Shown: positions 17,306 through 18,766 of the stretch, piece after piece
Layout: the number at the start of each line of letters is the position of its first letter
Position numbering within the stretch: the first letter of the stretch is position 1
Source: a virus
Taxonomy: Duplodnaviria; Caudoviricetes
DNA: 64,000 nucleotides
IMG/VR virus record: IMGVR_UViG_2747842453_000002
Location: 1 to 64,000 of that record
Reading direction: 5' to 3' (one strand)
The notes under the pieces: generated by a model
The model's database searches: none
The model's input: the letters and a program-made list of their open reading frames with translations, nothing else
What the model was told of the DNA's origin: nothing
Program-made: the position numbers and the translations under genes

Positions 17306-17381
17306 GCAGAGTGACACTAAAGAATTTGCCTAATTAATACATAACCTATAAGCATTTATAATCTGTTGTCTTTTTTTAAAG

Positions 17382-17404
17382 GATAAATAAAAGTAGAAGT
17401 TAAT
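17382..17404 (+). repeat. 23-bp direct repeat containing the late promoter (copy 1; copy 2 at 17730-17752)
   Basis: GATAAATAAAAGTAGAAGTTAAT is identical at both positions. Confidence 0.85.
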
Positions 17405-17414
17405 AAAAAAACTC

Positions 17415-17443
17415 TTGACAATCTACTCTTGATATGCTATATT
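17415..17443 (+). promoter_or_regulatory. sigma70 promoter of the tRNA cluster
   Basis: TTGACA-17-TATATT with extended TG. Confidence 0.75.
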
Positions 17444-17535
17444 AAGATTATAAGTTAAGATGCGGGTGAGAGCGATAAATATCTCCGTGTGGGACCAACG
17501 GTTAGTTCCACAATTTATAAAAAATTTAGTTTTAT

Positions 17536-17611
17536 TCCCTGTTAGCTCAGTTGGTAGAGCAATTGACTGTTAATCAATTTGTCGCTGGTTCGAGCCCAGC
17601 ACAGGGAGCCA
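17536..17611 (+). tRNA. tRNA-Asn(GTT)
   Basis: Full cloverleaf, ATTGA-CTGTTAA-TCAAT anticodon arm, encoded CCA. Confidence 0.95.
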
Positions 17612-17620
17612 ATATAATAT

Positions 17621-17708
17621 GGAGAGGTGGCAGAGTGGTCGAATGCGGCGGTCTTGAAAACCGTTGAGGTGAGAGCCTCCCAGGGTTCGAATCCCTGTCT
17701 CTCCGCCA
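17621..17708 (+). tRNA. tRNA-Ser(TGA)
   Basis: GCGGT-CTTGAAA-ACCGT arm, long variable arm, CCA. Confidence 0.95.
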
Positions 17709-17752
17709 AATATTGCTCATATTTTGAGTGATAAATAAAAGTAGAAGTTAAT

Positions 17753-17828
17753 GCTCCTATAGCTCAGTTGGTAGAGCAACTGATTTGTAATCAGTAGGTC
17801 CGCGGTTCAAGTCCGTGTGGGAGCACCA
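17753..17828 (+). tRNA. tRNA-Thr(TGT)
   Basis: ACTGA-TTTGTAA-TCAGT arm, CCA. Confidence 0.95.
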
Positions 17829-17833
17829 TTAAT

Positions 17834-17918
17834 GCGCCTGTGGTGAAATTGGTAGACACGCTAGATTTAGGTTCTAGTGCTTTACGGCGTGGGGGTTCAA
17901 GTCCCTCCAGGCGCACCA
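17834..17918 (+). tRNA. tRNA-Leu(TAG)
   Basis: CTAGA-TTTAGGT-TCTAG arm, variable arm, CCA. Confidence 0.93.
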
Positions 17919-17928
17919 AATGTTTAAC

Positions 17929-18004
17929 GGGGAATTAGCTCATCTGGGAGAGCGCCTGCTTTGCAAGCAGGAGGTGATCGGTTCGAGCCCGATATTCTCC
18001 ACCA
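17929..18004 (+). tRNA. tRNA-Ala(TGC)
   Basis: GGGGAAT acceptor with G3:U70, CCTGC-TTTGCAA-GCAGG arm, CCA. Confidence 0.95.
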
Positions 18005-18008
18005 AATA

Positions 18009-18093
18009 TATCAATGCAGGTTTGCTAACAGTAACAGATATTACAGGCGTCATATCAATTCTGCGGTGAGGTTCGAGTCCTCAATTGATACCA
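18009..18093 (+). ncRNA. tRNA-like RNA with acceptor stem, T-arm and CCA but no canonical D or anticodon arm
   Basis: TATCAAT/ATTGATA stem, TGAGG-TTCGAGT-CCTCA T-arm, terminal CCA, and an internal GCAG/CTGC helix enclosing two hairpins. Confidence 0.7.
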
Positions 18094-18099
18094 AGATAA

Positions 18100-18174
18100 G
18101 CGGGCGTAGCTCAGTGGTAGAGCCTTTCGTTGCCAACGAAACTGTCGAGAGTTCGAATCTCTTCGCCCGCTCCA
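18100..18174 (+). tRNA. tRNA-Gly(GCC)
   Basis: TTTCG-TTGCCAA-CGAAA arm, CCA. Confidence 0.95.
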
Positions 18175-18196
18175 TGAAAGGTATAAATATATTCAT

Positions 18197-18766
18197 ATGA
18201 ATTTTGTAAAACTTGATAACTTGCCAGTATTAGATTTAGAATTAGAGATTAATACTCTAATTGAAAATAATATTGTTAAATTTAATTCCAATACAACACA
18301 GATTTGTCTCAATACTGTAAAAGGAAAGGAAACAGATTATCAATTTGGACGTGGAAGTTTATACTACGACTGGGAAAACACGTATACAAATCAAAATGAA
18401 GAAGTTATTGTTCCGAAAAAAGATATTATATATGCGGAAGAAGATTTTACAGTTTTGTGTACACAATTTGTTGATACAGCGTTTGAAATAGTGTATAATG
18501 CTTTAAGCGCAAGATATATATTGGGCAGAGTTAGAATAATGAAAAGCAAGCCTAAGACTTGTTTGAGTTGGCACAATGACTTTCATCCGCGTGTACATTT
18601 TCCGATACAAACACAAGAGGGCTGTTTTATGGTTATAGAAGATGCAATTATGCATTTAAAAAAAGATACTTGGTATTTTACAAATACGTTACTACCTCAT
18701 ACTGCATTCAATGCTAGTTTGAAAGAGAGAATACACTTGGTTGCCACGATTGTAGGAGAACGATAA
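18197..18766 (+). CDS. AspH-like 2OG-Fe(II) oxygenase
   Basis: RVRIMKSKPKTCLSWHND...PHTAFNASLKERIHLV (HxD...H...R). TATAAATA at 18182. Confidence 0.75.
   Translation: MNFVKLDNLPVLDLELEINTLIENNIVKFNSNTTQICLNTVKGKETDYQFGRGSLYYDWENTYTNQNEEVIVPKKDIIYAEEDFTVLCTQFVDTAFEIVYNALSARYILGRVRIMKSKPKTCLSWHNDFHPRVHFPIQTQEGCFMVIEDAIMHLKKDTWYFTNTLLPHTAFNASLKERIHLVATIVGER

What the first reader, a model, noticed from the sequence alone, without database searches (positions are those of the whole stretch)
18009..18093. tRNA top-half RNA with a non-tRNA lower domain inside the tRNA array
Seen: a 7-bp acceptor-like stem followed directly by CCA and a canonical T-arm (GTTCGAGTC). In place of the D and anticodon arms, a GCAG/CTGC helix closes a junction with two hairpins (GTTTGCT-AAC-AGTAAC and GATAT..AC-AGGC-GT..ATATC). 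There is no 7-nt anticodon loop and no G3:U70. Known: T4 tRNA clusters encode stable non-tRNA species of unknown function, and the acceptor stem plus T-arm is what RNase P and the CCA enzyme recognise. Inference: a processed tRNA mimic, possibly a decoy for anticodon nucleases, synthetases or RelA-type sensors.
Basis: partly seen in the sequence, partly recalled or inferred. Interest (0 to 1): 0.7.

Follow-up and report, generated by a model that had tools for sequence, protein, structure and literature searches.

The report
Conserved phage tRNA-shaped RNA without anticodon
Between two ordinary tRNA genes this large phage carries a gene for a small tRNA-shaped RNA that cannot read codons; it belongs to a conserved, phage-only family I could not find described, which keeps seven loop letters unchanged and whose job is unknown.

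Summary
The element at 18009-18093 is real and is not a decayed tRNA. ARAGORN and Rfam do not call it. It has a perfect acceptor stem, a canonical T arm and an encoded CCA, and it lies 4 nt after tRNA-Ala and 6 nt before tRNA-Gly.

Pattern scans of IMG/VR and JGI metagenomes found 38 full-length homologues, 34 of them distinct. All lie in phage tRNA arrays on the tRNA strand. None turned up in 50,697 GenBank phage records, and a pattern scan of 185,579 prokaryotic species genomes found none.

The GCAG/CTGC helix and first hairpin are replaced by a compact cloverleaf:
- a 6-bp acceptor stem, with a seventh pair in some members;
- a mini D arm, 3 bp with a GGUU loop;
- a long two-part arm, helix X, internal loop and helix Y;
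- a 9-11-nt loop with invariant AGGCGUC;
- a 3-nt variable region, T arm and CCA.

Most likely this is a processed, stable, non-decoding RNA. It would use the tRNA frame for maturation and present the invariant loop to an unknown partner. A decoy role was not tested, and expression could not be checked. Other first readers of this scan noted members of the family on other DNA. No paper or Rfam family found describes it.

The parts
17415..17443 (+). Sigma-70-like promoter (TTGACA, 17 nt, TATATT, with TG) upstream of the tRNA array. It probably drives the transcript that contains the element.
   Evidence: 11 of 12 matches. Conserved in related contigs L064, L067, L068 and L069.
17536..18174 (+). 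tRNA array: Asn(GUU), Ser(UGA), Thr(UGU), Leu(UAG), Ala(UGC), the element, then Gly(GCC). All tRNAs encode CCA.
18009..18093 (+). The tRNA-shaped RNA gene, 85 nt including the facultative first base. The 5' end is probably 18009 or 18010 and the 3' end is the encoded CCA.
   Evidence: Family model R3 scores 97.1 bits, E = 7e-24. Ordinary tRNAs score 31 bits or less.
18009..18015 (+). 5' strand of the acceptor stem (TATCAAT). 18010-18015 form the six conserved pairs. 18009 pairs with A18090 here but in only about 65% of family members.
   Evidence: columns 1-7 with 101-110: pairs 2-6 are 100% paired, pair 7 is paired in 31 of 34, and all seven show compensatory changes.
18016..18025 (+). Mini D arm: stem GCA/TGC (18016-18018 with 18023-18025) and 4-nt loop GGTT (18019-18022) with a near-invariant GGT.
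   Evidence: 97% paired; GC, AU, CG and UA types; predicted by RNAalifold on a MAFFT alignment; 92.6%.
18029..18031 (+). Helix X, 5' strand (CAG). It pairs with CTG at 18061-18063 and forms the base of the elongated anticodon-position arm. In this clade A18033 and A18034 can also pair with T18059 and T18060.
   Evidence: (97.1% paired; 7, 11 and 10 double changes).
18037..18041 (+). Helix Y, 5' strand (GATAT). It pairs with ATATC at 18052-18056.
   Evidence: (91% paired; all 5 pairs have compensatory changes).
18042..18051 (+). 10-nt terminal loop TACAGGCGTC. AGGCGTC (18045-18051) is invariant in all 34 distinct family members.
   Evidence: consensus line. Members found through the D-loop pattern, which did not fix the loop, also carry AGGCGTC.
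18052..18056 (+). Helix Y, 3' strand (ATATC).
18061..18063 (+). Helix X, 3' strand (CTG).
18064..18066 (+). 3-nt variable region (CGG).
18067..18083 (+). Canonical T arm: stem TGAGG/CCTCA and loop TTCGAGT.
   Evidence: 94-99% paired with covariation. Both collection patterns fixed the T-loop sequence, so its conservation is not independent evidence.
18084..18093 (+). 3' strand of the acceptor stem (ATTGAT), A18090 (discriminator or seventh pair) and the encoded CCA (18091-18093).
   Evidence: CCA is present in most members; L072 and L117 have TCA.

Best explanation
This is a gene for a small (about 84 nt), stable, tRNA-shaped RNA that does not decode. It belongs to a conserved family found only in uncultured phage contigs.

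Inferred from position: it is transcribed with the neighbouring tRNAs.

Inferred from established RNase P and CCA biology: it is cut out of the precursor by the host tRNA-processing machinery, because it keeps exactly what that machinery reads. Those features are the coaxial acceptor/T-arm stack, the T loop, a D loop with GG for the elbow, and an encoded CCA.

Shown by covariation: the fold is a compact cloverleaf.
- The D arm is shrunk to 3 bp with a 4-nt loop.
- The linker between acceptor and D stem is 0-1 nt.
- The variable region is 3 nt.
- The anticodon arm is replaced by a roughly 10-12-layer arm: helix X, a variable internal loop and helix Y.
- The arm ends in a 9-11-nt loop whose seven letters AGGCGUC never change, while every stem around it does.

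Most likely mechanism (inferred): the tRNA frame supplies maturation, stability and perhaps access to tRNA-binding proteins. The invariant loop, held about seven base-pair layers further out than an anticodon, is the working part and is recognised sequence-specifically by a trans-acting partner, either protein or RNA. The partner is not identified.
For: Not a canonical tRNA.

Size and separation of the family:
- 38 hits, 34 distinct, score 51-97 bits with model R3, against 31 bits or less for ordinary tRNAs.
- Every member lies in a phage tRNA array on the tRNA strand, often 3-6 nt from its neighbours and beside different tRNAs.

Covariation:
- 91.9% of 838 cells are paired, against 69% in shuffles.
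- 202 cells carry double changes, against 49 in shuffles.
- The covariation score is 0.687, against 0.232 in shuffles (0 of 500 reach it) and 0.10 or less when partners are slid.
- MAFFT plus RNAalifold, which did not see my structure, predicts the same fold, and counts on that alignment agree.
- tRNA-Ser in the same array shows compensatory changes between contigs, a positive control.

Loop and D loop:
- AGGCGUC is invariant, including in members retrieved without fixing the loop.
- The GG of the D loop is near-invariant in members retrieved without fixing the D loop.

Partner and transcription:
- No protein gene is consistently adjacent; the best cluster occurs in 7 of 45 loci. A partner is therefore not encoded next door.
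- A promoter-like site lies upstream.
Against: - No expression or processing data exist.
- The single sequence is not more stable than shuffles (z = -0.82).
- Family members were collected with patterns that fixed either the loop or the D loop, and always the T loop. The membership cut uses a model that rewards the loop, so invariance of AGGCGUC is partly circular. RNAs with a similar frame but a different loop exist (L258 and L269).
- The acceptor end is odd. Only 12 nt lie between the T loop and CCA, against 13 in a tRNA. RNase P and CCA handling is therefore assumed, not shown.
- A 4-nt D loop may be too short to reach the T loop.
- The rival GCAG/CUGC pairing is still possible in 70-90% of members, so a second conformer cannot be excluded.
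Confidence: 0.6

Rival explanations
1. Decoy or bait for a host tRNA-targeting defence or tRNA enzyme. The tRNA frame attracts an anticodon nuclease, an acceptor-end toxin or a modification enzyme. The invariant loop mimics the targeted anticodon loop and titrates or blocks the enzyme.
For: - The tRNA top half and elbow elements are intact and conserved.
- The loop is invariant while the stems vary, as expected for a protein-recognised site.
- The family is phage-only in what was searched.
- From my own knowledge: phage tRNAs are known to counter tRNA-cleaving defences. The 3' half of the loop (C-GUC-A) resembles a GUN-type anticodon context.
Against: - The loop is 9-11 nt on an arm about twice the normal length. 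It has no U33 or purine-37 frame, so it is a poor mimic of any anticodon loop.
- No defence or anti-defence gene travels with it.
- No target nuclease with this specificity is known to me.
- Nothing here tests binding.
Confidence: 0.15
2. A working acceptor RNA. It would be aminoacylated through acceptor, discriminator or elbow identity and used either in unusual decoding or as an amino-acid donor outside the ribosome.
For: - CCA is encoded and the discriminator is mostly A.
- The core is compact: a 3-nt variable region, a short acceptor-D linker, a small D loop and a lengthened anticodon stem. It recalls tRNA-Pyl and mitochondrial tRNA-Ser(UCN), which are functional (PMC7609411).
Against: - No 7-nt loop and no U33.
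- The arm is about 7 layers too long for the ribosomal decoding site.
- Acceptor-stem sequences vary freely and there is no conserved G3:U70 or other identity pair.
- No synthetase-like or transferase gene is linked.
Confidence: 0.08
3. A cis-acting processing or punctuation module. The tRNA-like top half would exist only to direct RNase P and 3' processing of the polycistronic tRNA precursor or neighbouring RNAs, and the excised piece would have no function of its own.
For: - Spacing to neighbours is tight (4 and 6 nt).
- In several lineages it is preceded by other conserved non-tRNA modules that would need a 3' processing site.
Against: - A punctuation mark needs neither an invariant 7-nt loop nor two covarying helices far from the cleavage sites.
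- Flanking tRNAs carry their own processing signals.
Confidence: 0.07
4. An antisense or docking RNA for host 23S rRNA. The loop CAGGCGUCA is perfectly complementary to UGACGCCUG at about 1821-1829 of E. coli 23S rRNA (domain IV), so the RNA might interfere with 50S assembly or function.
For: The 9-nt complement was verified in E. coli 23S rRNA. An invariant loop across phages of presumably different hosts would fit a universally conserved target.
Against: - The statistics are weak. Only 7 nt are invariant in the family, and a random 7-mer, 8-mer or 9-mer has a complement in E. coli rRNAs with P = 0.23, 0.066 or 0.014.
- The match was noticed after the fact.
- The target segment is probably base-paired in mature 23S (my recollection).
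- The hosts are unknown.
Confidence: 0.05
5. A decaying tRNA pseudogene whose top half happens to be intact.
For: - It is not called by tRNA finders.
- The single-sequence fold is no more stable than shuffles.
- The best ordinary-tRNA match of the models is a tRNA-Arg(UCU), which could hint at ancestry.
Against: 34 distinct homologues in different arrays keep all five helices through compensatory changes and keep the loop invariant. This is incompatible with neutral decay.
Confidence: 0.03

Closest known systems
Canonical bacterial and phage tRNA (Rfam RF00005)
   Same: Array position and strand; acceptor stem stacked on a 5-bp T stem; TTCGANT T loop; GG in the D loop; encoded CCA; overall cloverleaf topology.
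   Different: - No 5-bp stem with 7-nt anticodon loop. Instead a two-part arm of about 10-12 layers ends in a 9-11-nt loop.
- The D arm is 3 bp with a 4-nt loop.
- The acceptor-D linker is 0-1 nt.
- The variable region is 3 nt.
- There is one nucleotide too few between the T stem and CCA.
- It is below every tRNA detection threshold.
Phage T4 RNAC (species 1) and RNAD (species 2), the small stable RNAs of the T4 tRNA cluster
   Same: Non-tRNA small RNAs encoded inside a T4-type phage tRNA gene cluster. RNAC also carries a canonical T arm near its 3' end. Their roles are still unknown (PMC3014915, PMC9697503).
   Different: - They are 139 and 119 nt and not cloverleaf-sized.
- They have no AGGCGUC loop.
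- The family model R2 does not hit them.
- They resemble this RNA in setting, not in sequence.
tRNA-Pyl and mammalian mitochondrial tRNA-Ser(UCN), the compact-core tRNAs (review PMC7609411)
   Same: 3-nt variable region, shortened acceptor-D linker, small D loop and lengthened anticodon stem (compared).
   Different: Those tRNAs lengthen the stem by one pair and keep a 7-nt anticodon loop that decodes. This RNA roughly doubles the arm and has no anticodon.
Bacillus cereus tRNA-Other, a chromosomal pseudo-tRNA (PMC3399842)
   Same: A tRNA-shaped RNA that, according to that paper's abstract, does not function in translation yet has a phenotype.
   Different: It is bacterial, chromosomal and not phage-borne. 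I did not compare the sequences, so no relation is claimed.
YrlA-type Y RNAs (Rfam RF02553; PMC4201824)
   Same: Non-coding RNAs that mimic a tRNA. According to an earlier AI note of this scan (e1-272486, not checked here), related RNAs occur in phage tRNA operons beside a Ro60-like gene.
   Different: - The only match is 14.5 bits against a gathering score of 69. It spans the T arm and the next tRNA.
- No Ro60-type gene was seen among the conserved neighbours.
Phage 'tRNA-chassis RNAs with swappable cargo', noted earlier in this scan (e1-5410580, e1-5802566; AI notes, unpublished)
   Same: Phage tRNA arrays that hold RNAs with a tRNA upper body and a non-anticodon insert. I saw RNAs with a similar frame but other loops in loci L258, L269, L168 and L106:3260-3351.
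   Different: - This family has a single, invariant 'cargo' loop and its own miniature D arm.
- It usually occurs once per array rather than as a tandem set.
- I did not test homology to those families.

Membership tests
Canonical tRNA (Rfam RF00005 / ARAGORN) | Scores above the family threshold (29 bits) or is called by a tRNA finder. | tested here: not met
   There was no RF00005 match, even at E up to 10, on 17380-18250. ARAGORN finds nothing at default settings. At lowered thresholds it returns only a spurious fold that borrows the tRNA-Ala CCA.
Canonical tRNA (Rfam RF00005 / ARAGORN) | A 5-bp anticodon stem closing a 7-nt loop with U33 and a purine at 37. | tested here: not met
   The loop is 10 nt here and 9-11 nt in the family. 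It sits on a two-part arm.
Canonical tRNA (Rfam RF00005 / ARAGORN) | A 7-bp acceptor stem, a discriminator and CCA, stacked on a 5-bp T stem with a TTCRANY loop. | tested here: inconclusive
   The T arm and CCA are present. Only 7 nt separate the T stem from CCA, so the stem is either 7 bp without a discriminator or 6 bp with A73. The top pair is kept in about 65% of members.
Canonical tRNA (Rfam RF00005 / ARAGORN) | A D arm with GG able to form the elbow with the T loop. | tested here: inconclusive
   A 3-bp stem with a GGUU loop covaries and GGU is near-invariant. Whether a 4-nt loop reaches the T loop cannot be tested with these tools.
tmRNA | A tRNA-Ala-like acceptor with G3:U70 and a tag reading frame, called by ARAGORN or Rfam. 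| tested here: not met
   There is no G3:U70. ARAGORN's tmRNA mode finds nothing, and no Rfam tmRNA hit covers the element.
T4 rnaC / rnaD stable RNAs | Sequence and structure homology to T4 species 1 or species 2 RNA. | tested here: not met
   Model R2, run on the T4 tRNA region, hits only ordinary tRNAs at 19 bits or less. The sequences were read.
YrlA / Y RNA (RF02553) | Reaches the gathering score (69 bits) and has a Ro60-binding helix. | tested here: not met
   14.5 bits, E = 7.6, spanning the T arm and the next tRNA.
The new AGGCGUC-loop tRNA-shaped family, defined here (models R2 and R3) | Compact cloverleaf with a mini D arm, helices X and Y, an AGGCGUC loop, a T arm and CCA, located in a phage tRNA array. 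| tested here: met
   The window element scores 97.1 bits and is the top hit. All helices are present. The caveat is that it was one of the seed sequences.

The most novel reading that the evidence does not exclude
The family is an RNA-based counter-defence or host-takeover tool of a new kind. It would be a tRNA look-alike made by the cell's own tRNA machinery. Its invariant AGGCGUC loop would specifically capture a conserved host factor, such as a tRNA-targeting immune nuclease, a tRNA or rRNA enzyme, or a conserved stretch of 23S rRNA.
Probability: 0.15. Interest if true: 0.8.

Novelty: new variant of a known kind. Interest (0 to 1): 0.6.

Why it matters
Phage tRNA clusters have been known since T4 to hold small stable RNAs with no known role. 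Reviews still list T4 RNAC and RNAD as unexplained (PMC3014915, PMC9697503).

This case offers a family of at least 34 variants with a well-supported fold and one sharply defined candidate active site, seven invariant loop letters. That makes the question open to experiment: mutate the loop, pull down what binds it, and map the RNA ends.

It also shows that annotation pipelines miss a recurrent gene class in large uncultured phages. It adds a natural example of how far the tRNA frame can be shrunk (D arm, linker, variable region) and stretched (anticodon arm) while the features for processing are kept.

Tried and rejected
- **Standard, intron-containing or mitochondrial-type tRNA.** ARAGORN with introns, mitochondrial mode and lowered thresholds gave only spurious folds. 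Manual attempts at Sec-like, allo-tRNA and class II folds failed.
It is the MFE of the single sequence, but comparative data support it less well (against 52, 82, 88, 98). I keep it only as a possible alternative conformer.
- **Homologues through synteny.** Relatives of the flanking hydroxylase and methylase do not carry the array next to those genes. The related jumbo-phage records G001-G004 lack the family.
- **BLAST against GenBank phages.** Four family members gave no match beyond T-arm fragments.
- **Bacterial or archaeal copies.** A pattern scan of 185,579 species genomes gave 8 chance hits, none scoring as family.
- **Rfam.** Nothing matched the element or the 165-nt upstream module.
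- **T4 rnaC and rnaD homology.** None found.
- **Conserved neighbouring protein.** None found.
- **Targets in the phage's own genome.** The complement of the loop occurs once as an 8-mer, at 102898, which is what chance predicts.
- **23S rRNA complementarity.** It is real but statistically weak.
- **Codon or anticodon readings of the loop.** I considered GGC against the adjacent tRNA-Gly(GCC), and GUC as an Asp-like anticodon, by eye only. Any 8-mer contains six triplets and the neighbouring tRNAs vary, so I dropped this.
It found only a truncated copy and an ordinary tRNA-Arg.

Full report
**What is at the coordinates**

The window is the first 64 kb of a 120,762-bp IMG/VR viral record, estimated about 30% complete. 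It is 34.7% G+C and carries a T4-type family-B DNA polymerase and tail-fibre genes.

Positions 17536-18174 hold six ARAGORN/Rfam tRNAs on the + strand: Asn, Ser, Thr, Leu, Ala and Gly. All encode CCA. They lie behind a near-consensus sigma-70-like promoter at 17415-17443.

The 95 nt between tRNA-Ala and tRNA-Gly contain the element. The sequence shows:
- TATCAAT (18009-18015) pairs perfectly with ATTGATA (18084-18090).
- This stem directly abuts a canonical T arm (18067-83, loop TTCGAGT).
- CCA follows immediately.

No tRNA finder or Rfam family matches, even at E = 10 or with ARAGORN's intron, mitochondrial and low-threshold modes. A top-half scan of my own over the whole 120-kb record picks up only the six tRNAs, this element and three weak AT-rich chance hits. 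The single sequence is not unusually stable, with MFE -17.2 kcal/mol and z = -0.82. The case has to rest on comparison with homologues.

**Finding relatives**

Synteny did not help. Relatives of the flanking genes carry no array nearby. Four related jumbo-phage records lack the element.

An exact scan with the T-loop plus 3' acceptor found seven metagenome copies and one IMG/VR copy. These are near-identical and therefore uninformative, with two exceptions:
- Two contigs (L064, L067) carry an extra roughly 165-nt module between tRNA-Ala and the element.
- The same two contigs have two substitutions: A to G at 18010, giving G·U, and T to C at 18023.

In the same alignment the variable arm of tRNA-Ser shows compensatory changes between contigs. 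This serves as a useful positive control.

The break came from an earlier first-reader note in this scan (e1-5834860). It described a tRNA-like RNA elsewhere with a loop containing CAGGCGTC, the same octamer as in this loop. A viral-contig scan for CAGGCGTC, 14-24 nt, then GGTTCGANTCC returned 89 stretches. About 35 of them are clearly homologous, giving 30 distinct sequences. A second scan fixed the D-loop motif instead and left the loop free. It added 13 more loci whose loops read TAGGCGTC or AAGGCGTC.

**The fold**

The family alignment shows immediately that GCA-GGTT-TGC behaves as a small hairpin. Variants include GCG-GGTT-CGC, ATG-GGTT-TAT, CTA-TGGT-TAG and GTG-TGGT-CAC.

I tested two structures:
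- S2 has the acceptor stem, a mini D arm, helix X (CAG/CUG), an internal loop, helix Y (GATAT/ATATC), the loop, a 3-nt variable region and the T arm.

Results on an alignment fitted to an S2 model:

| Feature | Cells paired | Note |
|---|---|---|
| S2 D stem | 96-97% | compensatory changes in every pair |
| S2 helix X | 97% | compensatory changes in every pair |
| S2 helix Y | 91% | compensatory changes in every pair |
| S1 GCAG/CTGC helix | 75% | few double changes |
| S1 hairpin 1 | 74% | few double changes |

That alignment leans towards S2, so I repeated the test on a plain MAFFT alignment of 33 distinct sequences.
- RNAalifold, given no structure, predicts S2. It returns a 6-bp acceptor, the 3-bp D stem, a 4-bp helix X, helix Y and the T arm, and 20 of 22 pairs show compensatory changes.
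- On that alignment the S2-specific D stem is 92.6% paired and the three outer helix-X pairs are about 88-97% paired.
- The S1-specific helices are 72.6% and 72.5% paired.

For the whole S2 structure on 34 distinct sequences:
- 91.9% of cells pair, against 69.0% in shuffles.
- 202 cells carry double changes, against 49 in shuffles.
- The covariation score is 0.687, against 0.232 in shuffles (0 of 500 reach it) and 0.10 or less when partners are slid.

Several points limit these conclusions:
- The two inner helix-X pairs I first drew (A18033 and A18034 with T18059 and T18060) are specific to this clade. Elsewhere that region is a variable internal loop.
- The U18009-A18090 pair is kept in about 65% of members (UA 17, AU 4, CG 1, other 12). 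Two lineages have TCA instead of CCA.
- The most economical reading is a 6-bp acceptor with discriminator A and encoded CCA. That is one base pair short of a tRNA.
- The GCAG/CUGC pairing stays possible in 70-90% of members, because the D-stem 5' strand and the helix-X 5' strand resemble each other. I cannot exclude a second conformer.

**What is conserved**

AGGCGTC in the terminal loop is invariant in all 34 distinct sequences. GGT in the D loop and the CCA are near-invariant. Every stem varies.

Ascertainment matters here. The T loop was fixed in both scans. The loop was fixed in the first scan and the D loop in the second. The family cut uses a model that rewards the loop. RNAs with the same D-arm motif but other inserts do exist (L258 and L269; also L168 and L106:3260-3351). 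The honest statement is this: there is a well-separated family (51-97 bits against 31 or less for tRNAs) in which the loop never changes. It sits within a looser population of tRNA-framed phage RNAs.

**Distribution and context**

- Every member lies in a phage tRNA array on the tRNA strand, often 3-6 nt from its neighbours. The neighbours differ: Gly(GCC), Glu, Gln, Asp, Trp, Arg(UCU), Ala, Leu and Ser.
- Contigs range from a few kb to more than 100 kb.
- No protein family is consistently nearby. The best cluster occurs in 7 of 45 loci.
- There is no match in 50,697 GenBank phage records for four different members.
- No family-level hit appears in one genome each of 185,579 prokaryotic species. 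This scan used a pattern, so it reaches only the main D-loop type.
- There is no Rfam family.
- The literature searches turned up no description of it.

**How it probably works**

Shown: it is a conserved, structured RNA gene with a tRNA frame and no anticodon.

Inferred from established knowledge: RNase P recognises the acceptor/T-arm stack and the 3' RCCA, and the CCA-adding and trimming enzymes recognise the same top half. The RNA is therefore probably excised from the array transcript like its neighbours and is stable.

Inferred from the conservation pattern: the working part is the invariant loop, displayed at the end of an arm about twice the length of an anticodon arm. This rules out ordinary decoding and points to sequence-specific recognition by a partner that is not encoded next door.

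I could not identify the partner.
- The loop plus the following A is complementary to UGACGCCUG at about 1821-1829 of E. coli 23S rRNA. I recalled this match and then verified it.
- Only 7 nt are invariant, and the chance of such a match is 0.014 to 0.23 depending on the length counted. It is a lead, not a finding.
- The decoy idea remains possible but untested, and the loop is a poor copy of any anticodon loop.

**Comparison with known systems**

- In setting, the nearest precedent is T4 RNAC and RNAD, small RNAs of unknown role in the T4 tRNA cluster. The family model does not hit them.
- In architecture, the compact core recalls tRNA-Pyl and mitochondrial tRNA-Ser(UCN) (PMC7609411). Those tRNAs keep a decoding loop.
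- It fails the defining tests for tRNA, tmRNA and YrlA.
- Other first readers of this scan flagged members of this same family on other DNA (e1-5349689, e1-5354407, e1-5834860). No follow-up on them was shown.

**Verdict**

The proposed lower-domain fold is wrong in detail. The general reading, a processed tRNA mimic, is plausible and partly supported, and the function is unknown. I rate it a new variant of a known kind, namely tRNA-like small RNAs of phage tRNA clusters, with interest 0.6.

Noticed in passing
L064:2548-2716 (also L067, L102:1607-1775 on the minus strand, L081:8319-8489 on the minus strand): A conserved module of about 165 nt sits between the preceding tRNA and the element in several lineages and is absent from this window. 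It has long-range helices, and 4 predicted pairs show compensatory changes between three variants. It has no Rfam match and no match in GenBank phages. It is possibly another undescribed array-borne RNA.
   Followed up: partly
L078, L084, L148 and L139: roughly 85-140 nt upstream of their elements (sequences): A second, different conserved module lies upstream of the element. It ends in AAACTGCTTACACTAATT directly before the acceptor stem. L072 shares that end motif. It could be another small RNA or a promoter or processing signal.
   Followed up: no
window 17447-17535: The array leader holds two hairpins and a GATAAATA box. The second hairpin (about 17486-17508, loop CAACGGTTA) keeps its loop and changes its stem compensatorily in contig L066 (GTGGGAC/GTTCCAC becomes GTAGAT/GTCTGC). 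The box plus AAAGTAGAAGTTAAT recurs at about 17340 and 17725, before tRNA-Thr, like repeated late-promoter modules.
   Followed up: partly
L258:2887-2974, L269, L168:534-626 (minus strand), L106:3260-3351: These are other tRNA-framed RNAs in phage arrays. They have the same GCAGGTTTGC-type D arm or a related frame, but entirely different inserts in place of the AGGCGUC arm. They score only about 31-37 bits with the family model. This suggests a wider population of tRNA-frame RNAs with exchangeable inserts.
   Followed up: partly
window 17753-18174 compared with L064-L069: The block from tRNA-Thr to tRNA-Gly, spacers included, is identical in contigs whose upstream tRNAs (Asn and Ser in L066) and downstream genes differ. 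The array is a recombinational mosaic of cassettes.
   Followed up: partly
L106 (IMGVR_UViG_3300025652_000621): ARAGORN reports two 'tRNA-???' genes with 2-letter anticodons (tg, ga) in the same array as a family member. These are further non-canonical tRNA-like genes.
   Followed up: no
window 18016-18019, 18029-18031 and 18061-18064: The 3' strand CTGC can pair either with the 5' strand of helix X (CAG) or with the 5' strand of the D stem (GCAG). The same double complementarity recurs with different letters in the distant L095 clade (TCAT with GTGA or ATGG) and in L117. The RNA may switch conformation, or this may be a by-product of sequence similarity between the strands.
   Followed up: partly
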